DNA of 64,000 bases from NCBI GenBank assembly GCA_963785725.1, contig CAWAWS010000033.1, forward strand, positions 96,001-160,000, given 5' to 3'. Below are positions 1,353-33,083 of the stretch, piece after piece (positions within the stretch are counted from its first letter, which is position 1; each line of letters opens with the position of its first letter). The notes below the pieces were generated by a model. The model saw only the letters and a list, made by a program, of their open reading frames with translations, was not told the origin of the DNA and made no database searches. Position numbers and translations under genes: made by a program. This DNA comes from an uncultured delta proteobacterium. GTDB taxonomy: Bacteria; Myxococcota_A; Polyangia; Palsa-1104.

Positions 1353-4300
1353 TCAGCCGCTGAAACCGGGGACGAGGAGCGCGGTCATGCGCTCGGGCAC
1401 GCGGACGCCGAGCGCGGCCCAGCTGCGATCGGCGGCGTGCAGCGCGGTCGAGTCGCCGGCCAGCTGCGCGCGGGCGCGATCGGCGGCGACGGCGAAGTGG
1501 CCCATCGACGCGGCTCGCAAGCGGCCGCGCGCGTCGTCGAGCAGCGCCAGCGCGCGATCGGGCTGACCGCGGCGCCGGGCGACGGCGGCCAAGCCGAGCG
1601 TCGCCAGCGGCGACGACCAGGGCAGACGATGGCGCAAGATGCGGTTGGCGAGGCGCTCGGCGGCGGCGAGGCGCGCCGTCGTGCCCGCGCGACCGTCGGC
1701 GCAGGCGAGCGCGCAGCGCATCTTGAGCGTCAACAGATCGAGCCGGAGCGGATGCACCTCGAGCAAGAGCGAGCGACCGAGCGCCGGCCAATGCCGTTCG
1801 AGCAGCGCGTAGGCGGCGTCGCTGCGACCTTCGTAGAGCGCCAGCTGCGCGTGCGCGTGCAGGCCGAGCGCATGCTGCACGTGCATGCCGGCGTTGGGCC
1901 AGCCGGCGACGGCGGCCGCGACCGCGCGCCGCGTGGCCACCGGCTCGTCGGCGGCGAGGCCAGGCAGCACGTTCCAGCCGGTGCGCAGGACGCAGGCCGA
2001 GTAGCGGTCACCGCGCGCTTCGGCGGCGTCGAGCATGAGCGGCAGCCGGCGCGACAGCTCGGGCAGCTCGCCCAGCCAGCCCAGCGTCTGCAGCTGGAAG
2101 AAGCCGACGTTGGTCAGCTCCCAGGCCACGTGATCGCAGCGCGCGCGCAGCAGCCGCTCGGCCTCGTTCCACAGCGTGCGCGCGGCGATGAATTGACCGC
2201 TGAACTGCGTCTGAATCGCGCGCGACATGCAGAGGAGCGCGTCGAGATAGGGCGAGCCGAGGCGGCGCACGATCGGCTCGGCCTCGTCGGTGAGCCGGCG
2301 CGCCAAGCGCCGCGCCATGGCGCCGCGCGACGTCAACAGGAACGTCTCGACGAGCAGCGCGCGGGCGACGCGATAGGGCTCGCCGCCGCGCAACGCCAAG
2401 AGCAGGTGACGCTCTTGGAAGACCGCGCCTTGGATGTGATCGATCGTCGACAGGCCGACGCCGATGGACCAGCAGGTGTCGATGCGGGCGCGCTCGATCG
2501 GCGACAAGGTCGCGGCGTCGCGCTCGACGAAGCGGAAGCGTCGCAGCCGCAGCTGCGCCATGCGCGCCACCAGCTCGAACAGCGCCGCCGCCGGCGTCTC
2601 CGGCATGCGCAGCCCGACCGCGGACATGACCGAGCGCAACAGCGCCATCGCCTCGTCGAGACGGCCGACGCGCAAGAGCTGCTCGGCGGCGCGACGACGC
2701 AGATCGAGCGCGCCGAGGGGCGACGGCTCGGACGCGGCCGCCGCTTCGTAGGCGCGCGCCGCCGCTTCGCCGCGACCGCCGTTGGCGAGCGCGTCGCCGA
2801 GCTTGATCTGCAGCGCGCCCGCGTCGGCACCGCCACTGTCGCCGGCGAGCGCCAGGCACTCTTGAAACAGGCGGGCCGCGCGATCGAAGGCCAACACTTG
2901 CCGCGCGCGATCGGCGGCGAGCGCGAAATAGTGCGCGGCGCGCGCGCGCTGACCGGCGGCGCGAAAGTGCATGGCCAGCGTCTCGGCGTCGCCGCGCTCT
3001 TGCCGCTCGAAGGCGCGCGCCAGCTGCTCGTGCCAATGACGCTCGGCGCCGGCGACGAGCTTCGCCTTGACCGTCTCGCGCACGCGATCGTGATAGGTCT
3101 CGACGCGATCGCTCGGCCGCGCGCCCGTCGAACGCACCAAGAATGACGCGCGCAAGAAGGCCAATTGCCGCTCGAGCTCACTCCATCCGAGATCGACGGC
3201 GGCCGCGGCCACGTCCTGCTCGAGCGGACCGCCGGCGACGGCGACGAGCTCGAGCAGCCGGCGCGCGCCGTCGGGCAGGCGCGCAATGCGCGCGGCCAAG
3301 GCGTCCTCGAGCCGCGCCGGACCGCGGGCGCTGCCGACGGCCAGGCGATGTTGCACGAGCGCCTCGATGAACAGCGGATGGCCGGCCGCTTCGCGCGCGA
3401 CGTCGTCGGTGAGCGGCGGCAAGGACGAGTCGCGCAGGAGCTCGGCGGCGAGCAAGCGCGCTTCGTCGGGCGGCAAGAGGTCGAGCGACAGGCGGCGCAC
3501 GTCGCCGGGCAGACAGGCGGCCACTTCGTCGACGGGCACGCCGACGTCGCGGCGCAGCGTCGCCACCAGCAGCACCGGCGGCGCGTTCGGCGGATCGAGC
3601 AGCGCCTCCAGCAGCAAGAGGCTCTCTTCGTCGGCCCAGTGCAGATCGTCGATGTGCACGATCGTGAGGCGCTGCGCGGCCAAGCGGCGCAGGATTTCGC
3701 GCAGCGTGGCGAACACGGCGCGACGCAGCTGCTGCGGCTCGCCTTTCGGCACGTTCGCCGGCGCGTGCCCGTTGGCGAGCGGCGCCAGCACCGGGAAGAT
3801 CTGCGCCAGCGCGCCCATGTCCGACGGCAAGAAGTCGGCGGCGTCGGCGGGCGGCAGCGCCGACAAGTGGCGGCTGAGCGCGTCCACGATCTCGTCGAAC
3901 GCCTTGTAGGGCACGCTCTCGCGCTCGTAGCAGCGGCCGCGCAAGACGAGCGCGTCACCGGCGCCGCGCACGCGCTGACAGAACTCGTGCACGAGCGCCG
4001 TCTTGCCGACGCCCGATTCGCCATCGATGAGCAGCGACACGGTGTGGCCGTGCGCGACGTGGGCCAGCGCGCCGTGCAGCTGCTCGAGCGGCTGCTTGCG
4101 GCCGACGAAGCGCGGCGCGGCGTCCGGCGTCTCGGAGCTGGCCGGCGCCGGCGCGGCGGCGCGCAGCCACTGCAGGACTTGGCGACCGCTCGGCCGCGCT
4201 TCCGGCGCCCGCCGCAGCAAGGCCAGGCACAGCTCGTCGAGATCGGCCGGCACCGACGGAATCAGCGTGCGCGGCGCGATCGGATCGACCGAGCGCTTGA

Positions 4301-5204
4301 GCGTCAGCACCTCCGGCGGCGGCCCGGCGAACGGCACGCGACCGGTGAGCGCGAGGTAGAGCAGCATGCCGACCGAGTACCAATCGGCGGCCGGCGTAAT
4401 CGGCGCCACCGTGCCCTGCTCCGGCGCCATGAAGGCGACGGTGCCGGCCAGGTCGCCTTCGTCGCTGGGCGCGCGCGTCACGTCGGCGACGAGCCCGAAG
4501 TCCAAGATGGCGACGCGACCGGCCGGCGTGACCAGAATGTTCGACGGCTTGATATCGCGATGGACCTTGCCGGCGCGGTGCAGCGCCAGAAGGCCATGGA
4601 CGAGCTGCTCGAGGCTGGCGCGCAGCTTGGCTTCGTCGCAGCGGCCGGCGCGCGGCGGCGCCGCGTCGTCCACGAAACCGGTGAGGCGGCCGTCGTCGGT
4701 GTCGGCTTCGCCGAGCCGCATCCCGTCGCCGCGCACGTGCTCCAAGAAGTCGACGCCTTCGACGAGCTCCATCGTGAAGAACCAGCGCCCGGCGTCCTGC
4801 ATGAGCTCGCCCAAGCCGACCAAGTTGGGGTGCTCGATGCCGCGGAGGGCGCGGAACTCGTGCTTGAAGCGCAACAGCGAGCCGTTGCTGCGGGCGGCGA
4901 TCGTCTTCAAGGCCACGCGCGCGCCGCTGTCGCGATCGAGCGCTTCGTAGACGACGCCCATGCCGCCTTCGCCGAGCCGCTTGACGACGGCGAAGCGCGC
5001 CGTGCCCGTGAACTCCTCGTCGGCCATGCTGCCGTCGGCGGCGACGGGCATGACGAACGTCGAGCGCGCCTGCTCGAGCAGCGGGCGACAGGTCTGGCAC
5101 TGGCTGGCGTGGCGTTCGAGCTGCGCGCGTTCGTGGCTCGACAGCCAGCCACGCAGGCTGGCCGCCGCCCGATCGCCGTCGAAGCACGCCCCGTCCGCGT
5201 CCAT
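1353..5204 (-). CDS. Ser/Thr protein kinase with N-terminal HxxxCxxC zinc finger, AAA_16/STAND-like P-loop NTPase and C-terminal helical (TPR-like) region
   Basis: LGEGGMGVVY, VALK, HRDIKPSN, DFG, GTVAFMAPE; Walker A GESGVGKT; Walker B IDDLHWAD; N-terminal LERHASQCQTC; no TM segment; start codon uncertain (5204 or 5243). Confidence 0.9.
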   Translation of the reverse strand: MDADGACFDGDRAAASLRGWLSSHERAQLERHASQCQTCRPLLEQARSTFVMPVAADGSMADEEFTGTARFAVVKRLGEGGMGVVYEALDRDSGARVALKTIAARSNGSLLRFKHEFRALRGIEHPNLVGLGELMQDAGRWFFTMELVEGVDFLEHVRGDGMRLGEADTDDGRLTGFVDDAAPPRAGRCDEAKLRASLEQLVHGLLALHRAGKVHRDIKPSNILVTPAGRVAILDFGLVADVTRAPSDEGDLAGTVAFMAPEQGTVAPITPAADWYSVGMLLYLALTGRVPFAGPPPEVLTLKRSVDPIAPRTLIPSVPADLDELCLALLRRAPEARPSGRQVLQWLRAAAPAPASSETPDAAPRFVGRKQPLEQLHGALAHVAHGHTVSLLIDGESGVGKTALVHEFCQRVRGAGDALVLRGRCYERESVPYKAFDEIVDALSRHLSALPPADAADFLPSDMGALAQIFPVLAPLANGHAPANVPKGEPQQLRRAVFATLREILRRLAAQRLTIVHIDDLHWADEESLLLLEALLDPPNAPPVLLVATLRRDVGVPVDEVAACLPGDVRRLSLDLLPPDEARLLAAELLRDSSLPPLTDDVAREAAGHPLFIEALVQHRLAVGSARGPARLEDALAARIARLPDGARRLLELVAVAGGPLEQDVAAAAVDLGWSELERQLAFLRASFLVRSTGARPSDRVETYHDRVRETVKAKLVAGAERHWHEQLARAFERQERGDAETLAMHFRAAGQRARAAHYFALAADRARQVLAFDRAARLFQECLALAGDSGGADAGALQIKLGDALANGGRGEAAARAYEAAAASEPSPLGALDLRRRAAEQLLRVGRLDEAMALLRSVMSAVGLRMPETPAAALFELVARMAQLRLRRFRFVERDAATLSPIERARIDTCWSIGVGLSTIDHIQGAVFQERHLLLALRGGEPYRVARALLVETFLLTSRGAMARRLARRLTDEAEPIVRRLGSPYLDALLCMSRAIQTQFSGQFIAARTLWNEAERLLRARCDHVAWELTNVGFFQLQTLGWLGELPELSRRLPLMLDAAEARGDRYSACVLRTGWNVLPGLAADEPVATRRAVAAAVAGWPNAGMHVQHALGLHAHAQLALYEGRSDAAYALLERHWPALGRSLLLEVHPLRLDLLTLKMRCALACADGRAGTTARLAAAERLANRILRHRLPWSSPLATLGLAAVARRRGQPDRALALLDDARGRLRAASMGHFAVAADRARAQLAGDSTALHAADRSWAALGVRVPERMTALLVPGFSG

Positions 5205-5308
5205 CCCGGTCGGCAGACTACCCGCGCCGGCGCGCCAATTCAACGGCCGCGGCGGCGCCGCCGCCCGTCAGTGACCGGTGGTCATCGAGTCGGCAGAGCC
5301 GACCCCGA

Positions 5309-5518
5309 TCAGCGAGGCGTCGGCAGCGGCGCCAGCGGCACGCCGCCGATGGGCGTCACGCGGCGGATGCGCTGCTCGGCCACGCGCGCGGCAAAACAGG
5401 CGCCGCACAAGGTACAGCGCGTCGACAAGCCGTTCGTCTCGACGGCGATGAGCGCCGGAGCCGCGTGGCAGCTGCTGCAAATCGCCGGCAGCATGGGCGC
5501 GCTTTTCGTTCGCGACAT
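5309..5518 (-). CDS. Small Cys-rich putative zinc-binding protein (69 aa)
   Basis: CSSCH...RCTLCGAC; same strand as neighbours; preceded by an AT-rich promoter-like stretch. Confidence 0.45.
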   Translation of the reverse strand: MSRTKSAPMLPAICSSCHAAPALIAVETNGLSTRCTLCGACFAARVAEQRIRRVTPIGGVPLAPLPTPR

Positions 5519-5588
5519 CCATTTGGAATAGTCGCTCGGGAGGCGAATGTAAATACGGCTTAAGACCGACATATCGACCTGTAATCCC

Positions 5589-5604
5589 ATCATAAATGTA
5601 TGAT
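5589..5604. promoter_or_regulatory. Palindromic operator-like site ATCATA-N4-TATGAT
   Basis: atcataaatgtatgat in the AT-rich gap between the oxidase and the small ORF/kinase. Confidence 0.4.
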
Positions 5605-5648
5605 TGACCCGCTCTGAATTCAGGCGGCGAGAACGCCCATCGTCGGGT

Positions 5649-7001
5649 CTAGCGTTGGCCGAGCTGAAACACCGAGCTCTCGAGGAAATCGTTGAGGAAG
5701 ATGCGGTCGGGATCGAACTGCTGCCGAATTTCCAGGAAGCGATCCATCTGCGGATAGCGCGCCTTGATCTGCTCGGGACGCAGGATGTATTTGCCCCAGT
5801 GCGGCCGCGCCGTCGCGAACTGCAGCATCGTGTTCGTATAGTCGAGATAAAAGGGCTCGATGTTGGGCGTACCGGTGCAGGTCACGGCCTCGATGTCGCA
5901 GATCGGCCGACCATAAGCCGGCGACAGCAGCGCCTGCGACAGGCCGATGAAGCGCGAGTGAACGACCATGTTGACCGGATATTGCGGCGGCGAGCGGCGC
6001 GCGTAGGACGTGACCAGATCCATCGCCGCGCGCCACGCGTCCGCGGAATCCTCGAGCGGCACGCCCCACGACATGTCCCAATTCTTCGGATAGGCCTGCT
6101 GATAGTGGAACTCGACCGAGCTCGGCTCGACGCGCACGCCCGGCCGCACGGCGAAGAACGGCGCCACCTTCATGAACAGCGGCGTCAGCTGCGGAAGATA
6201 GCGCGCCGTCAGCGGCAAGATCACCTGGCCCGAGAACATCGTGGCGATGTAATCGAGCACGTTCTGCTCGATGCCGTGCAAGGTCGTGGCGTCCGACGGC
6301 TCGTTGGTGCGGTTCATGAGCTTGCACCACATGGTGTCGGCGCCGGGAAACCAGAAGAGCTCGACGAAATCGTAAGAGGCGAGCATGTCGTTCAACCCGC
6401 TCAGGACTTCGCGGCGCGAGATGAAGCGATCTTCGACGTGGACGTTGTAGGCCGGATGCATGCGCAGCTTGGCCGAGTAGATGATGCCCATCGAGCCGAG
6501 GGCGACGCGCGCGGCGTCGAGGACGTCGCCGTGATGCTGCTCGATGTAGTGCGGCGTCCCCGAGGCGTCGACGATCGTCATGGCGATGACTTCGTCGGAG
6601 ATCGTCGACGAATGCAGGCCCGTGCCGTGCGCGCCGACGCCGATGGCGCCGCCCATGGCCACGCCTTGGAAGATCGTGGGCGTGATGATCGACAGCTCGT
6701 GCGTCTCGGTGAACGACACGAGCTCGCGCATCGACACGCCGCACTCGACGGTCACCGACGGATTCGGCCCCGAATCATCGAGTGACAGGCAGCGCGTCAG
6801 CTTCGACAGGTCGATGATGCTGCCCGTCGTCGGCACGAGCGGGCTCCACGAGCAGCTGTTGCCGGCGACGCGCACGCGACCGTTCTTGGCCGCCGTCTTG
6901 ACGTCCTCGCACAGCTCGTCGAGGCCGCCCGGCTGATAGAGATCGGCGGTGCAGCTGAGGTTCTGGTTCCAGTTGGTCCACTGAAAGTTGGGCGTTGGCA
7001 T
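5649..7001 (-). CDS. FAD-linked aldonolactone oxidase family protein (L-gulonolactone/D-arabinono-1,4-lactone oxidase-like, VAO/PCMH fold)
   Basis: WTNWNQN start, GGAIGVGAHGTG, ALGSMGII, LLSPAYGR, ARPHWGK, FDPDRIFLN. Confidence 0.9.
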   Translation of the reverse strand: MPTPNFQWTNWNQNLSCTADLYQPGGLDELCEDVKTAAKNGRVRVAGNSCSWSPLVPTTGSIIDLSKLTRCLSLDDSGPNPSVTVECGVSMRELVSFTETHELSIITPTIFQGVAMGGAIGVGAHGTGLHSSTISDEVIAMTIVDASGTPHYIEQHHGDVLDAARVALGSMGIIYSAKLRMHPAYNVHVEDRFISRREVLSGLNDMLASYDFVELFWFPGADTMWCKLMNRTNEPSDATTLHGIEQNVLDYIATMFSGQVILPLTARYLPQLTPLFMKVAPFFAVRPGVRVEPSSVEFHYQQAYPKNWDMSWGVPLEDSADAWRAAMDLVTSYARRSPPQYPVNMVVHSRFIGLSQALLSPAYGRPICDIEAVTCTGTPNIEPFYLDYTNTMLQFATARPHWGKYILRPEQIKARYPQMDRFLEIRQQFDPDRIFLNDFLESSVFQLGQR

Positions 7002-7010
7002 CCGTCACCC

Positions 7011-8795
7011 TCAGATGTTGATCGAGTTGGGAACCAGCGACGGCAACAGATACTGATACGGCCGCGGTCGCGTGCGATTTCGTTCGGTGATGGTCGCCTG
7101 AATCTCCGCCAGCCCCGCGTGCAGCCGCGCGATGGCGTCTTTGGCGACCGCGACTTTGCCGAGCGGGTAGTGGTCGTACTCGCCGAAGCGATCGTAGCGA
7201 TAATTGGCGATCTGATTGTTCTCGAACTGATCGGCGGCGACGTCGATCGGCGGCAGCGTGTCGATGATTCGATGCGGCGTCACCGTCTCGGTCTCGGGCG
7301 GCGGCAGGATGGGCGCGCCCGGAAACGCCGGGATATACGTGAAGTAGTCGGTCTGCGGATAGTGCACCGCCGCGTGGCCGGGGCCGGCCATGAACAGGAA
7401 CTGCGTCAGCACGCGCGCCAGCTCGGGCACGCTCGACAAGCGGTCGCCGGCGAAGAGGCCGCGCAAGTTGCCGCCGTCGGGCGCTTGCAGCTCGCGCGCC
7501 CACGCTTGCAGCTCCCAGTCGCTCGGGATGTCGTTGATGCCGTGATAGAACTGCTGCAAGTAGTCGTTCACGAAGCGCTCGATCACCGGCAGCCACAAGC
7601 GCGCGTCGTCACGATAGGGATACTCGCGCGGCTGCTCGCCGACGCCGCGCGCGTCGAGGTCGTGCTCGAGCGCCAGGTCGTTCAGCGTCCACGTTTCATA
7701 GGACGTGATCATGATCTGGCGCGTCTCGCACAATTCGCCCGCGTAGATCTCGTCGAAGACGCTGCCCGGCGTGTTCATGAGCTGAAAGGCCTTGCCGTTG
7801 ACCGCCAGCGTGTAGGCGAGGTGCGGCTCGAGCAGCACGTAAATCGGATGCGTCGGCGACAGCTGCCGCCGCGTCGTGAGCGCGAACGGCTCCGCCGAAT
7901 AGTGGTGACGATAGAGGTGCACCGACATCGCCTGCAGGTTGAACTCGGCCGCCTCCACGAACGTCTTCGCGAGCAGCCAGCGCTCGTCCTTGTCCGAGCG
8001 CAGATAGAGCGGATTGGGCGCCGCCGCGTCCTTCTGATCGCAGGAGATGGCGACGGGCACGAGCTCGCAGAAGGCGTCGTCGCCGGGCCGCTGGCAAAAG
8101 AGCGCGACCGGGCAGGGCAGGTATTTGCCGCGCCAGCGCGAGTCGCGGCGGCTCGACGTCTGCGGAATGAGCGAGCGCTGCAGGATGCGATAGTCGGCAA
8201 TGAACAGATTGCCGGCGGCCAAGTCGTCGGCCATCGTGCGCGACGGGCCCATCACCGAGCGATATTGCTCTTCGGTGATCGGCATCGTCGCTTGCAGCTC
8301 GTCGATCGAGCGCACGCGCGCCAACAAGAGCGGATTGGGACCGTCGACGCGATTGCGCGCGAAGAAGCCGTCCTCGCGCCAGCGCTCCACTTCGGGCGGC
8401 GGCGGGAGATCGAAGAGGCGGCTGAAGAGGCGGCGAAACGCCTTCATCTTGTCGACGGGCGCGCCCAAAAACGCGCGCAAGCCCCACCAGGCCTTCTTCA
8501 GCTCGGTGTCGGCCAGGGCGCGCAAATAGGTCGGCAAAAAAGGCAGCGCCCAGCTCAGCCCATAGTTCTCCCAAATCGGGAATCGGTCGGCGATGGCGAT
8601 GGGCGCGAGCGAGTTGTAGCGGCGATCTTGCGGCAAATAGGAGTACAGCGAGCGGATGACGTCGAGCGCCAGCGCGCGCTTGTTGGGATGCGGATCGCGC
8701 TGCGGCAAACACGGCGCCGGCATCCCCGAACGACCGACCGGCAACTCGTAGCGGACCTTGAGCAAGAGCGCTTCCAGCGTCTGGACCAAAGGCAT
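7011..8795 (-). CDS. lox: Lipoxygenase (non-haem iron), no signal peptide
   Basis: WREDGFFARNRVDGPNP, WLLAK, VHLYRHH, HPIYVLLEPH, YPYRDDA, HAAVHY, C-terminal NSINI; SD AGGAGG. Confidence 0.95.
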   Translation of the reverse strand: MPLVQTLEALLLKVRYELPVGRSGMPAPCLPQRDPHPNKRALALDVIRSLYSYLPQDRRYNSLAPIAIADRFPIWENYGLSWALPFLPTYLRALADTELKKAWWGLRAFLGAPVDKMKAFRRLFSRLFDLPPPPEVERWREDGFFARNRVDGPNPLLLARVRSIDELQATMPITEEQYRSVMGPSRTMADDLAAGNLFIADYRILQRSLIPQTSSRRDSRWRGKYLPCPVALFCQRPGDDAFCELVPVAISCDQKDAAAPNPLYLRSDKDERWLLAKTFVEAAEFNLQAMSVHLYRHHYSAEPFALTTRRQLSPTHPIYVLLEPHLAYTLAVNGKAFQLMNTPGSVFDEIYAGELCETRQIMITSYETWTLNDLALEHDLDARGVGEQPREYPYRDDARLWLPVIERFVNDYLQQFYHGINDIPSDWELQAWARELQAPDGGNLRGLFAGDRLSSVPELARVLTQFLFMAGPGHAAVHYPQTDYFTYIPAFPGAPILPPPETETVTPHRIIDTLPPIDVAADQFENNQIANYRYDRFGEYDHYPLGKVAVAKDAIARLHAGLAEIQATITERNRTRPRPYQYLLPSLVPNSINI

Positions 8796-8827
8796 GCGCA
8801 GTCCTCCTGACGAGCGTTATCCAGCGT

Positions 8828-11800
8828 TCATTCGGGATATCCGGCGGCTTGCGAGCGCACCCACGGCGCCGGATTGACGACGCCGAGCGCGCGCATGGCC
8901 CCCTCCGCTTCGGCGACGAGCGCGCGGCCGGCGTTGCCGCCGAGGAGCTGCCCTTTGCGCCGGCGCGCGTAGGCGCTCTCGAGCGGCAGGGCGGCTTCGG
9001 CGAAGGCGGCCAGCGCGACGTCGACGGCGGCGAGCGCGGCGTCGCGCCGGCCGCGGCGGATGGCGATGGCCGCGCGCCACATGGCCGTCTGCCCGCTGGC
9101 GTAGGGATAGCCGGAGTCGCCGCAGACGTCGACGTCGGACTCGGCGGCGCTCAACGCCGACGGCTCGTGACCGCGCGCCGCCAAGAGGCAGCCGGCGCGC
9201 AGGCCGTGAAAGACGAGCCGGAAGTTGGCCGAGCGCATGAGGCCGGTCGCCTTCAACATCGGCCACGCGGCTTCGAGTCGGCGCAAGCCGTCGGCCGGGC
9301 GACCGGCGTAGAGATCGCTGTAGCACTCGAACTTGAGCGCCGTGGTCTTGATGTAGTGGTCGCCGATGGGCGCGCGCGCGAGCGCCTCGTCGATGCGCTC
9401 TTTGGCGACGGCCGGCTGATCGGCGGCCAGCGGCGGGATCGCCGAGTAGAGGCGCGCGCACACCTCGCTGTAGCGATTGCCCGACGCGCGCGCGTCGGCG
9501 GCGGCGCGCTCGGTACGGCGGGCCAGCTCGTCGAAGCGGCCGAGCAGCTGCAAGTCGAGGATGGCGTTGAGCTCGGCCTTCTGGATCTCGCTCTGCACAC
9601 CGCGGCACTGCCGGAGCAGCGTCTGCGCCTCCTCGAACGCCGCCAGCGCCTCGACCCAGCGGCCGCGCGTGTGCTCGACGAACGCCGTCCAAAAGCGCAA
9701 CAGGCCGAGCACGTAAGGCGTGCCGAGGCCGTCGGCGATGATGCGCGCGCGCTCGATCATCTTCTTGCCCATCGGCGAGCCGACGACCGAGAGGCCGCTG
9801 CCGACGGCGGCCATGCCTTCGACGACGCGCGACGGCTCGCCCGCGGTCAACGCCAAGACGAGCGCGCGGGCCGAGAAGCGCGTCGACGCGATCGGATCAC
9901 GCATAGTCAAGCTACGACTGGCCGAGTAGCAGAGATCGATGCGAAAGCGCGTCATGGCGTCGATCTCGCTCTCGGCGCGCTCCACGAAGTCGAGGCCACG
10001 CCAGCGCAGCCGCAACAAGTCGGCGCCGAAGCCGACCATGGCGCGCGCCGACGTCTTTGGGCGCGACAGGCCCACTTGCGCGCACAGCTCGTCGAGGAGG
10101 GCCAAGCCTTCGTCGCTGTGGCCGCCCATGAGGTACTGCTCGCAGGCCGAGCGACGCAGCAAGAGCGCGTCCAAGCCCGACGCTTGCGCGGCCGCTTCGA
10201 GGTAGCGCGGCGCGGCTTCGGCGCAGCGACCGGCGTTGGCGAGCGCGGCGGCATGCTTGGCCAGCGGCGAACAATCGTGCGGCCGCCAATCGAGCGCCTT
10301 GCCATACAGCTCGGCGGCTTCGTCGAAGGCGAGCGCGGCTTCGGCCTCGGCGGCGGCGCGCAGCGCGTAATCGGCGGCCCGATCGAGCTCGCCCGCTTCG
10401 TGCAAATGCTTGGCGACGAGGCCCGGCAGCACCGTGCGATTGGCGGCATAGGCCGAGGCCAACGCCAGATGCAGCCCACGCCGCTTCTCCGGCTCGAGCG
10501 CGCGGGCGACAATCTCGCGGATGCGGTCGTGATAAGGCGCCACTTGCTCGCGCCCGTCGGTGTGCCGGGTGCGCAACAGATGGCCGGCGCGCAGGCGGTT
10601 GAGCAGCGTGCGGTCGATGGAGTCGAGGCCGGCCGCGTGGCGCGCGATCTCGACGTCGACGGGACGACCGGCCAAGCCGACGACCGCCAAGAAGCGCTGC
10701 CACGGCTCGGGCAGCTCGTCGATGCGCTGCGCGACCATGTGCTCGAGCAGCGCCTGACGCTGCTCCAAGTCGGGCGTATGCGGCTGCGCCGCGCGGGTGT
10801 CGGCGTGCGTGAAGCGCACCAGCTCCTCGAGCAGGAGCGGGTTGCCGGCGGCCTCGCGCACCAGCTCGGCGACGACACCGGGACGCGTGCGGCGCCGCTG
10901 CAACAGCGCCGTCGCCAGCGCTTCGCAGTCGCTGGCCGGGATGCGCTCGAGCGCCAGGCGGCGGCGATCGGTCGTGTCCGCCGCCGTCGCCGCCAACGCG
11001 CGCAGCTCGCGCAAGAACGGGCTCGATTCGCCGTCTTCGTTGCGATAGGTCAGTAAGAGCAGCAGCGGCGGCGCGTTGGGCGGCTCGAGCAGCTGATGCA
11101 GCAGCACCGCCGAGTCGACGTCGCCCCAGTGCACGTCGTCGAGCAGCATGACCACGTGCTGCTCCTTGCCGAGGTCGCGCAGGAGCTCGCGCAAGGCTTC
11201 GACGGCGCTGCGGCGCACTTCGAGGGCGCTGCGGCCGTCGTCGGGCGCGTCGCCGGCGTTGGCGGTCACGAAGCCGGGCACGCGGCCGAGCACGGGAAAC
11301 AGCCGCGCCAAGTCGGCGACGGCGCGCGGCCAGGCGTTGGCGCTCGTCTGCCAGCGGCGCAAGAGCACACGGCTCAGCTCGTCGATGACGCCGTCGAACG
11401 CGCGATACGGCAGCGTCTCTTGCTCGTAGAATCGGCCGACCAGCACGAGCGCGTCCGGGCTGTCGACGAGGTTGCCGAGAAAATGCTCGCACAGCGCCGT
11501 CTTGCCCAGGCCCGACTCGCCCGACAGCTCGACGACGACCGGCCGACCCGGCTGCACCGCCTTGAACGCCGCACTCAGCTGCTGAAGCTCGGCCGTGCGG
11601 CTGATGAAGACGTGGCGCGGCCCCTGATCGCTGTGCACCTCGGCGATGTCGCGACCTTGCAAGCGGCGCAGGACTTCGGGCCCCGTCGGCCGCTGCTCGG
11701 CCGTCACTTGCAGCAAGTCCTGGCACAGCTGGCTCAGATGCTCGGGGATCGCCGGGTCGATGAGCTGCGGGCGAATCGGCCGGCGCGTGAAGATGGCGGT

Positions 11801-12556
11801 GCCGATCTGGCTCGGCGAGCCGTCGAACGGCGGCACGCCGACGAGCGCTTCGTAGAGCACGACGCCGAACGAGTACCAGTCGCTGGCTTCGGTCACCGGG
11901 CCCGCCGTCCACTGCTCGGGCGACATGTAGAGCGGCGTGCCCACGATCTCGCCCTCGACGTTCGCCGCCAGCGGTCGCGTCTCCGTCGCCAGCCCGAAGT
12001 CGAGCACGACGACGCGCGAGTCGGGGGTCACCAAAATGTTCGACGGCTTGACGTCGCGATGCAAGAGGCCGGCCTCGTGCAGCGCGCACAGCGCCTCGGC
12101 CAGCTGACCGAAGACGGCGCGCACGTGCGCCAGATCGAGCGCCGGCATCGGCACGCGCTCGCGCCGCGGCGCCCCGCCCCGCGCCGACATCGCCTCGACG
12201 GTGACCGCCTGCTCGACCGGCACCAGCTCGGGCCGCAAGTGCTCCAGCATCGTACGCCCGGGCACCAGCTCCATCGTGAAATACCAGGCGTCGTGCGACT
12301 GGAACAGCTCGTACAGCGACACCAAGTTCGGGTGCGCCATTTCCGCGAGGAGCCGAAACTCCTTCTTGAATCGATAGATCGACTCGGGGCTCTGCTGGCG
12401 CAGCTGCTTGAGCGCGACGGGGATGCCGAGCTCGCGATCGAACGCGGCATAGACGGTGCCGAAGCCGCCCTCGCCTAGTCGCTCGCGGACCTCGAATCGC
12501 TCCTGGCCCGTGAACCCTTCCATGCGGTGCGGCTCTAGCCTCCTCGGGAGTGCCAC
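8828..12556 (-). CDS. Ser/Thr protein kinase with AAA_16/STAND-like P-loop NTPase and C-terminal helical (TPR-like) region
   Basis: [30 protein letters not shown]; Walker A GESGLGKT; Walker [10 protein letters not shown]; paralogous to 1353..5204. Confidence 0.92.
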
Positions 12557-32249: not shown

Positions 32250-33083
32250 TTACGGCGCCGGCGCGGGCGGTGCCGGCGGCTGGGCGACGTCTTCGATGAG
32301 CGCGCCGCACGACGGCGGCAGCTGCGGCTGCGCGCCCACTTTCGCTTTGTACGTCTGCTTGCCTTTGTCGCGATCGGCCGCCGCCGCCGGATTCAGCCAC
32401 CAGCCGAGCTGATCGCAGCCGTCGCCGGGCGGCAGCGGCGCCTGCGCCACGCACTCGGGGCTGTCGGCGGGACAGGCCAGCCGCACGTGGAAGTGATCGT
32501 CGTGTCCCCACCACGGACGAATCTTCTGCAGCCACTTGCGATCGCCCGTCGTCCGCTCGCACAGCGCGCGCTTGAGCAGCGGGTTCAGGAAGATGCGCTC
32601 GACCGCCACATTCTCGGCCGCCAGCTCGACCACGCGCGCGATCGCCGGCGTAAAACGCGACGACGGCTGCTGATGCGCCGAGTCGACCATCGACGCGCTC
32701 TCGGTGACGCTCGGCGCCGCGAACCACAAGTCGACGTCGAGGCCGGTCTGGTGGCTGGCGTGTCCCGTCGGCGCGGGTCCGCCGCGCGGCTGCCCCATGT
32801 CGCCGACGTACAAGGGCGGCTGCTTCAGCGTCGAGAGCCGCGTGCCCAGCGACTCGATCAGCGACACCAGCAGCGGATGGCCGAAGACGCGATTGCGCTC
32901 GGGCTTGACGACGCGAAAGCCATCGCCGCGCATCGGCAACGCCACGGCGCCCGCGATGCAGCCGGCGCTATAGCCGCCGATGGCGCGCGCCGGCCCCGTC
33001 GACGGCGTGCGCGCGCGGCTCCATGGCGTCGGCGGTGAAGCGGCCGCCGGCAGCGTCAACAGCACGAGCGCAGCCGCGAGCAT
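32250..33083 (-). CDS. mepA: Penicillin-insensitive murein endopeptidase (peptidase M74)
   Basis: AIGGYSAGCIAGA, GDMGQPRGGP, GHASHQTGLDVDLW, IRPWWGHDDHFHVRLACP. Confidence 0.92.
   Translation of the reverse strand: MLAAALVLLTLPAAASPPTPWSRARTPSTGPARAIGGYSAGCIAGAVALPMRGDGFRVVKPERNRVFGHPLLVSLIESLGTRLSTLKQPPLYVGDMGQPRGGPAPTGHASHQTGLDVDLWFAAPSVTESASMVDSAHQQPSSRFTPAIARVVELAAENVAVERIFLNPLLKRALCERTTGDRKWLQKIRPWWGHDDHFHVRLACPADSPECVAQAPLPPGDGCDQLGWWLNPAAAADRDKGKQTYKAKVGAQPQLPPSCGALIEDVAQPPAPPAPAP

What the first reader, a model, noticed from the sequence alone, without database searches (positions are those of the whole stretch)
1353..12556. Lipoxygenase and aldonolactone oxidase bracketed by two kinase-NTPase-TPR sensors: candidate kinase-gated oxylipin / lipid-peroxidation system
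Seen: five co-oriented genes. Kinase-NTPase (12556-8828) lies 32 nt from lox, lox lies 9 nt from the FAD oxidase (whose SD overlaps the lox stop), then a small Cys ORF and a second paralogous kinase-NTPase follow. None has a signal peptide or obvious TM segment. Known: effector-STAND NTPase-TPR is the architecture of NLR-like sensors, lipoxygenases make fatty-acid hydroperoxides and need oxidation to Fe(III) to start, and GULO/ALO oxidases make ascorbate analogues plus H2O2. Inference: a cytoplasmic sensor kinase controls LOX output, either an oxylipin signal for multicellular behaviour or membrane peroxidation as a defence or death effector. The oxidase could prime LOX, tailor its product or supply an antioxidant. 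I know of no description of this combination.
Basis: partly seen in the sequence, partly recalled or inferred. Interest (0 to 1): 0.85.

Follow-up and report, generated by a model that had tools for sequence, protein, structure and literature searches.

The report
Lipoxygenase, flavoenzyme and sensor-kinase cassette
In myxobacteria-like soil bacteria a fatty-acid-oxidising enzyme (lipoxygenase) travels with its own dedicated flavin enzyme and, in some lineages, with a large ATP-switched protein kinase, which likely form an undescribed unit that makes and senses an oxidised-lipid signal.

Summary
The five genes and spacings are as described, but they are two modules. Kinase-NTPase K1, lipoxygenase (LOX) and the FAD enzyme form a conserved cassette. 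The Cys ORF and second kinase K2 form a separate pair, also found in two genomes where this LOX was not found. The FAD gene lies directly behind LOX in 21 of 22 loci of one LOX clade and beside none of 29 other LOX loci. K1 orthologues precede LOX in 5 of 20 loci, in two orders. A different kinase-STAND subfamily, often with cyclase or histidine-kinase outputs, lies within 6 kb of other LOX genes in 15 of 35 LOX-bearing genomes (crude chance under 3%), so the LOX-STAND link recurs. The FAD enzyme fails the aldonolactone-oxidase tests: no flavinylation His, Thr at the oxygen gate, sugar-binding Glu lost. It keeps the Arg-Lys pair for alcohol oxidation, so ascorbate or H2O2 supply is unlikely. 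Best reading: LOX plus a dehydrogenase make an oxo-oxylipin that K1 senses; the direction of control is untested. No defence context. Not found in nine paper searches; this scan noted a like module on other DNA (e1-2168204).

The parts
8828..12556 (-). K1: Ser/Thr kinase + STAND-type NTPase (AAA_16) + helical TPR-like tail; the start may be the ATG at 12523. Member of the cassette.
   Evidence: Pfam; kinase, Walker A/B, GNP and HD motifs intact; orthologues upstream of LOX in L011, L012, L114, L115; tail
7011..8795 (-). Lipoxygenase, 594 aa, catalytic domain with a short N-terminal extension; iron ligands H293, H298, H474, H478 and C-terminal I594. Core of the cassette.
   Evidence: Pfam E 1e-38; closest solved chain 5med, E 1e-81; ligand conservation in 58 rows; single copy in the genome
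5649..7001 (-). FAD-linked oxidoreductase of the VAO/ALO fold, 450 aa, a LOX-linked subfamily; predicted alcohol dehydrogenase, not an aldonolactone oxidase. Core of the cassette.
   Evidence: Pfam; below all NCBIfam cut-offs; residue mapping; synteny and tree
8796..8827 (-). 32-nt K1-LOX spacer with AGGAGG ribosome-binding site
7002..7013 (-). LOX stop overlapping the GAGGG site of the FAD gene, 9-nt spacer
   Evidence: equally tight spacing in 17 of 18 other loci
5309..5593 (-). Small Cys-rich ORF (two CxxC motifs, conserved tail); belongs with K2, not with the LOX cassette
   Evidence: 55% and 69% identical copies directly before K2 orthologues in G004 and G002; no hit in 51 LOX loci
1353..5243 (-). 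K2: paralogous kinase-NTPase; neighbour here, not a conserved member
   Evidence: outside the K1 clade; orthologues of 64-66% in G004 and G002, where this LOX was not found

Best explanation
K1, the lipoxygenase and the FAD enzyme form a conserved cassette that likely makes and reads an oxylipin signal: LOX is predicted to peroxidise a polyunsaturated fatty acid, the FAD enzyme would oxidise the derived alcohol to an oxo fatty acid, and K1 likely binds the product through its helical tail, switches on its NTPase and signals by phosphorylation. Shown: gene order, co-inheritance, intact catalytic motifs. From family knowledge: LOX chemistry; Arg-Lys-assisted hydride transfer from a secondary alcohol. 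Inferred: that the LOX product is the FAD enzyme's substrate (a reduction or rearrangement step lies between hydroperoxide and alcohol), the oxo product, a possible LOX-FAD enzyme complex, and K1 as receptor. K2 and the Cys ORF are a separate unit.
For: LOX then FAD gene in 21 of 22 clade loci, none in 29 other LOX loci. The label needs 2 changes on a 56-row tree against 16 when shuffled; pairwise identities of the two proteins track each other, Spearman 0.91 over 19 loci and 26-95% identity (kin are not independent). Reverse search: 5 of 6 FAD-profile matches in 401 genomes lie beside LOX, and the sixth is outside the clade. R350 and K404, the equivalents of GalDH Arg388 and Lys456, are invariant in 45 rows (PMC11099136 passages). 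LOX-FAD enzyme complex: weak support, 0.44 against best control 0.00, runs 0.56/0.02/0.44, at least 56% of contacts shared, partner pLDDT at least 80; the mark was reached by 116 of 157 solved and 2 of 215 mismatched pairs, but at 0.60 or under by only 18 solved pairs and by both mismatches. K1: five LOX-linked proteins fall in one 7-row clade, support 100; full-length matches of 55% or more occur in just the 3 of 42 genomes of the order that have this LOX; in G477 and G480 the LOX-adjacent copy is the best K1 match of 10 and 12. A second kinase-STAND subfamily lies within 6 kb of LOX in 15 of 35 genomes; 6 of 9 examined end in GAF plus cyclase or histidine kinase. Precedent for oxylipin synthase plus receptor: the ODS system (PMC6377657 passages).
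Against: No activity, substrate, product or expression data. K1 is upstream in only 5 of 20 loci with visible upstream DNA, in two lineages, and two members of the K1 clade (L186, L187) have no LOX or FAD gene nearby. No K1-clade member was seen in the two Nannocystis-type genomes searched that keep LOX-FAD (G454, G490). No PfaD above cut-off in the genome, though 8 desaturase matches, so the substrate source is open. One of three complex runs scored 0.02. No structure model could be made. The LOX has unusual residues beside the first two His ligands (A289, H297, Y299), so its substrate may be atypical.
Confidence: 0.42

Rival explanations
1. Kinase upstream: K1 senses another cue and phosphorylates LOX or the FAD enzyme to gate oxylipin output.
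For: K1 is first in the unit, has intact kinase motifs and no output domain other than the kinase; co-inheritance as above.
Against: 15 of 20 loci lack K1 upstream; the second LOX-linked STAND subfamily carries cyclase or histidine-kinase outputs that point to the rest of the cell.
Confidence: 0.2
2. Lipid tailoring or detoxification, possibly of sterols or prey-derived lipids, with K1 as a regulator and no signal molecule.
For: EXPERA (sterol-isomerase-like) domain fused to LOX (L012, P0016, P0018, P0039) or encoded behind the FAD gene (L011); ERG2/sigma-1 domain fused to a related FAD enzyme (P0122); cholesterol-oxidase substrate-domain hits over cut-off in two FAD homologues; P450 beside the cassette in L114, L115, L117; the genome has an oxidosqualene cyclase.
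Against: No cyclase match in 3 of the 16 other LOX-FAD genomes searched (G176, G234, G433; 96, 90, 81% complete), and it is present in many genomes without the pair; this window's cassette has neither EXPERA nor P450.
Confidence: 0.17
3. Anti-phage or cell-death system: K1 detects infection and unleashes membrane peroxidation.
For: STAND-TPR architecture as in NLR-like sensors (recalled); patchy presence, 3 of 15 genomes of the family.
Against: The 25 PADLOC families shown of 32 match only the kinase domain; LOX and the FAD enzyme match none. No defence families among 47 window proteins scanned with Pfam; among flanking genes scanned, a restriction methylase appeared only at L120, the locus with a broken LOX and no FAD gene. 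Myxococcus fulvus LOX1 has no significant membrane oxygenase activity (PMC6612559 abstract), though it is another LOX.
Confidence: 0.1
4. The FAD enzyme is a true sugar-lactone oxidase that supplies H2O2 to prime LOX or an ascorbate analogue to restrain it.
For: Pfam ALO label; nearest solved chains are galactonolactone dehydrogenase and alditol oxidases.
Against: Flavinylation His replaced (C50; His in none of the six commonest-residue counts shown for 45 rows), Thr at the Ala113/Gly oxygen gate (39 of 45; no Gly), Glu of the E-x-R motif replaced by His, Val or Tyr; 179 against 397 bits for the lactone-oxidase model.
Confidence: 0.07
5. K1 is a chance neighbour and only LOX-FAD is a unit.
For: 174 kinase matches and 10 strong family members in the genome; most loci lack K1.
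Against: Orthologous K1 directly upstream in two orders although flanking genes differ; about 10 family members among about 7,750 genes.
Confidence: 0.04

Closest known systems
Cyanobacterial mini-lipoxygenase, PDB 5med (named CspLOX2 in finding e1-4768710 and from recall), and Pseudomonas aeruginosa LOX, PDB 4g32
   Same: Catalytic domain, iron ligands, Ala at the position recalled as the Coffa site (A336 = A300 of 5med).
   Different: About 35% identity; His as fifth ligand; clade-specific RDSRWR insert and A289/H297/Y299; no signal peptide; fixed FAD partner.
Aldonolactone oxidoreductases (GULO, ALO, GalDH; PDB 8qnr) and alditol oxidase (2vfr, 8ot8)
   Same: VAO fold, Arg-Lys catalytic pair, HWxK motif.
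   Different: No flavinylation His, Thr at the oxygen gate, Glu lost, below family cut-offs, own clade.
LOX plus tailoring-enzyme pairs: catalase-like allene oxide synthase-LOX fusions (PDB 3dy5), LOX-P450 units
   Same: LOX encoded with or fused to an enzyme that presumably takes its product.
   Different: The partner is a flavin alcohol oxidoreductase, not a haem peroxide-rearranging enzyme.
Pseudomonas aeruginosa ODS oxylipin quorum sensing (diol synthase operon + OdsR; PMC6377657)
   Same: Oxylipin-making enzymes encoded with a candidate receptor.
   Different: Haem diol synthase and LysR regulator there; LOX, flavoenzyme and kinase-STAND here; receptor role untested here.
Kinase-fused STAND NTPases (AAA_16 type; TOMM kinase/cyclase model TIGR03903; NLR-like Avs sensors, recalled)
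   Same: Kinase, NTPase and helical repeat order; TIGR03903 matches over residues 298-747.
   Different: 165 against 706 bits; no Avs model among PADLOC hits shown; linked to lipid-oxidising enzymes, not to defence islands.

Membership tests
Lipoxygenase (PF00305) | Profile score above cut-off | tested here: met
   133 against 23.6 bits
Lipoxygenase (PF00305) | Three His, His/Asn and C-terminal Ile iron ligands | tested here: met
   H293, H298, H474 in 58 of 58; H478 in 56; I594
Lipoxygenase (PF00305) | Dioxygenation of a 1,4-pentadiene fatty acid | not testable with these tools
   needs assay
GULO/ALO aldonolactone oxidase | His for covalent FAD | tested here: not met
   C50; column is C, Y, A, N, F, G (PMC11099136)
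GULO/ALO aldonolactone oxidase | Gly at the position-113 oxygen gate | tested here: not met
   T109; T 39, A 3, P 2, S 1 of 45
GULO/ALO aldonolactone oxidase | Substrate-binding Glu of E-x-R | tested here: not met
   H348; H 37, V 7, Y 1; mapped through the 8ot8 alignment, not directly on GalDH
GULO/ALO aldonolactone oxidase | Catalytic Arg388-Lys456 pair | tested here: met
   R350, K404 in 45 of 45
GULO/ALO aldonolactone oxidase | NCBIfam TIGR01678/01679/01676 cut-offs | tested here: not met
   179/397, 189/292, 58/458 bits
STAND NTPase (AAA_16 type) | Walker A, Walker B with DD, GxP and HD motifs (motif list recalled) | tested here: met
   GESGLGKT 346, LLDDVHW 471, GNP 571, HDRIR 676; AAA_16 81 against 32.6 bits
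STAND NTPase (AAA_16 type) | C-terminal TPR-type repeats | tested here: inconclusive
   no Pfam TPR; 0.92 to TPR clusters; only designed helical proteins in PDB search
Avs/NLR-like anti-phage system | Match to defence models beyond the kinase domain, defence-island context | tested here: not met
   (25 of 32 families shown)
Avs/NLR-like anti-phage system | Phage protection | not testable with these tools
   needs plating
Oxylipin autoinducer system (ODS-like) | Synthase and receptor genes linked | tested here: inconclusive
   linkage shown; receptor role not shown
Oxylipin autoinducer system (ODS-like) | Product binds the receptor and changes behaviour | not testable with these tools
   needs binding and phenotype data

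The most novel reading that the evidence does not exclude
Myxobacteria and their relatives run lipoxygenase-based lipid signalling in which kinase-STAND (NLR-like) proteins are the oxylipin receptors, recruited at least twice: K1 with a new flavin dehydrogenase that makes a reactive oxo-oxylipin, and a second subfamily wired to cyclase or histidine-kinase outputs. This would be a bacterial counterpart of eicosanoid/jasmonate signalling with a small-lipid ligand for an NLR-like protein.
Probability: 0.3. Interest if true: 0.9.

Novelty: new variant of a known kind. Interest (0 to 1): 0.7.

Why it matters
What bacterial lipoxygenases do is open: they have been linked to multicellularity by distribution only (10.1101/2022.06.21.497025, passages). 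This cassette names a downstream enzyme and a candidate receptor, and named Nannocystis strains carry the LOX-FAD core (L013, L014), so product and function can be tested directly. The repeated pairing with kinase-STAND proteins also offers a candidate ligand class for a large, uncharacterised myxobacterial kinase family, and the flavoenzyme is an unstudied VAO-fold subfamily that databases label as a lactone oxidase.

Tried and rejected
Structure prediction of LOX and the FAD enzyme: the machine was busy at all nine tries, so no model and no fold search. RNA runs: no RNA holder listed. Promoter/terminator scan: one promoter-like site between the FAD gene and the Cys ORF, against 0.5 +/- 0.7 by chance, so no evidence. 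PDB search with the K1 NTPase and tail: only designed helical proteins and RuvB-like at E > 0.001. Cys ORF: no family in Pfam, NCBIfam, PADLOC; only unnamed Atlas clusters. Plasmids: 8 distant LOX matches under 34%. The careful kinase tree timed out; FastTree was used. Five-gene system: rejected. Obligate sterol link: weakened. The 84-aa alternative small ORF 5522-5268: negative coding score. The 1,300-aa gene upstream of LOX in six Nannocystis-type loci is no kinase and has no Pfam family. Paper searches with no description of the combination: (listings only), and term searches in the 2026 review PMC13319228 ('operon' 0, 'kinase' 0); most subscription journals and all supplements were not seen.
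Full report
Observation. LOX and the FAD gene are single-copy in the 8.9-Mb genome; kinases are not: 174 kinase matches and 10 strong kinase-NTPase family members among about 7,750 genes. The nearest named homologues are from Polyangia and Myxococcales records and Nannocystis, so the host is inferred to be a myxobacterium-like organism.

LOX-FAD core. I gathered LOX loci from 61 relatives, 42 genomes of the order, 401 of the class, 401 of the phylum, 73 of the Nannocystis order, and two contig scans, and read up to 9-10 kb on each side of 51 of them; 40 of these were picked from longer match lists, best scores first, and some end at contig breaks. L003 and L004 repeat L011 and L012 and were counted once. 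LOX genes with the FAD gene behind them form one clade (support 99; 20 rows, 19 with the gene). With L020 and G358 (broken or split over contigs, left out of the tree) the count is 21 of 22; the exception, L120, has a frameshifted LOX. None of the 36 other rows, from 29 loci, has it. The label needs 2 changes against 16 in shuffles, the spacing is tight in 17 of 18 other loci, and identities of the two proteins correlate at 0.91. Six Nannocystis-type loci and two further pairs are near kin, so the independent count is lower. The reverse search with a FAD-clade profile found 6 of 401 genomes: five beside LOX, one outside the clade with no LOX in 19 kb. A complex prediction gave weak support for direct binding (0.44, best control 0.00; one run 0.02), which on the tool's counts is more often wrong than right unless likely beforehand.

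K1. An orthologue lies directly upstream of LOX in L011 (65%), L012 (54%), L114 and L115 (41-42%), 5 of 20 loci with upstream DNA. These five fall in a 7-row clade (support 100, FastTree, 66 rows) with two unlinked paralogues from G477 and G480. In the window's order, full-length matches of 55% or more occur only in the three genomes with this LOX (16 candidates scored per genome). On the LOX tree L114/L115 branch below the window's group and the Nannocystis group, which suggests an old link lost in the latter (inference). Flanking genes differ between the loci, so this is not bulk synteny.

K2 and the Cys ORF. K2 lies outside the K1 clade. Its orthologues (64-66%) are in G004 and G002, where this LOX was not found (92% and 53% complete), each directly behind a copy of the Cys ORF. 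The Cys ORF had no hit in the 51 LOX loci and no K1/K2-family NTPase follows the FAD gene elsewhere. Paralogues of this family also sit side by side in a relative (G010:C108). The bracket is therefore a local join of two units; a role for K2 here is not excluded.

A second STAND link. Among 17 phylum-sample LOX loci without the FAD gene, 9 have a 1,300-1,900-aa kinase-STAND directly or nearly beside LOX; none of 9 such Nannocystis-order loci do. The nine form their own clade (support 100) apart from K1; five end in GAF plus cyclase, one in GAF plus histidine kinase and receiver, three have neither. Searching the same 401 genomes with one such NTPase found 81 genomes; 22 of the 35 LOX genomes are among them, and in 15 the match lies within 6 kb of LOX, against a crude chance of 0.4-2.6% per genome. 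In G110, G294 and G376 the LOX-adjacent copy was the only match. The query came from a LOX-adjacent protein and only four candidates per genome were scored, which favours finding linked copies, and kin inflate the count. Still, LOX is paired with kinase-STAND proteins of two subfamilies.

The enzymes. LOX keeps all iron ligands and has Ala where 5med has A300 (Coffa site, recalled; S-type products are the usual rule, with exceptions noted in PMC6612559 passages). The FAD enzyme aligns best with galactonolactone dehydrogenase and alditol oxidases. PMC11099136 (passages) states that GULO/ALO oxidases have a flavinylation His and Gly113, that Ala113 blocks oxygen, and that Arg388 and Lys456 stabilise the substrate alkoxide. 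Here the His position is Cys50 and variable, position 113 is Thr109, the Glu is His348, while R350 and K404 are invariant. I read this as a probably non-covalent flavin dehydrogenase for a non-sugar secondary alcohol. A caveat: the alditol-oxidase-type chain 8ot8 shows Ala at the gate position, and such enzymes are oxidases (recalled), so the gate rule is not absolute. Optional partners point to lipids: EXPERA fused to LOX or following the FAD gene, ERG2/sigma-1 fused to a related FAD enzyme, P450s. The L115 P450 keeps the ordinary acid-alcohol pair (AGHETT), unlike the P450s in finding e1-3079154. The genome makes sterols, but no cyclase was found in three LOX-FAD genomes.

Mechanism. I commit to LOX, then flavin dehydrogenase, giving an oxo-oxylipin that K1 senses (0.42). 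The cassette as a functional unit is much surer (about 0.9) than its direction. Receptor is preferred to gate because the enzymes persist without K1 and the parallel subfamily carries outward-pointing outputs; ODS (PMC6377657 passages) is a precedent for the logic. Defence lacks context.

Novelty. Nine paper searches (listings only) and passages of five papers showed no LOX-flavoenzyme or LOX-STAND unit; subscription papers and supplements were not seen. This scan noted a LOX-flavin oxidase-STAND module in another genome (e1-2168204, two-line note); my reading was recorded before I saw it and it is not independent support. Its 'usually next to a STAND' is stronger than my 5 of 20. Verdict: real, conserved, undescribed variant of a LOX-plus-tailoring-enzyme unit with a candidate receptor; interest 0.7.

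Noticed in passing
L136, L138, L139, L141, L143, L144, L146, L149, L150; further genomes: A second kinase-STAND subfamily (often GAF + cyclase or histidine kinase) lies beside LOX genes, often tandem LOX pairs, in 15 of 35 LOX-bearing genomes of the phylum sample.
   Followed up: partly
window 5309-5593 and 1353-5243; L226:9317-13535; L228:15604-19693: The Cys-rich ORF and K2 form a conserved pair in three genomes of the genus; the ORF has a conserved tail and might be a K2 partner. The window's K2 frame also has an HxxxCxxC stretch ahead of the kinase (zinc-finger-like, recalled).
   Followed up: partly
L012:9572-11737; L011:13146-13577; P0016, P0018, P0039; P0122: EXPERA domain fused to LOX or encoded behind the FAD gene; ERG2/sigma-1 domain fused to a related FAD enzyme: two unrelated sterol-isomerase-like folds around one pathway.
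   Followed up: partly
L013:5766-9653 and five other Nannocystis-type loci: A conserved 1,300-aa protein with no Pfam family lies upstream of LOX where K1 lies elsewhere.
   Followed up: no
G000:C9:9591-16400 and C39:384547-387652: Sterol gene clusters: oxidosqualene cyclase (DCTAE) with neighbours that look like sterol-modifying genes by eye, and an EXPERA gene among reductase-like genes.
   Followed up: partly
G000:C33:249332-253331: Another K1-family NTPase gene lies directly before a fatty-acid desaturase match.
   Followed up: no
P0081; P0073, P0076; L143:7702-8877: LOX fused to a cyclase domain, LOX fused to or followed by catalase-like domains.
   Followed up: no
window 32253-33083; L011:13651-14403: A murein endopeptidase (M74) gene 61% identical lies just behind the cassette in L011 and 20 kb from it here.
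   Followed up: no
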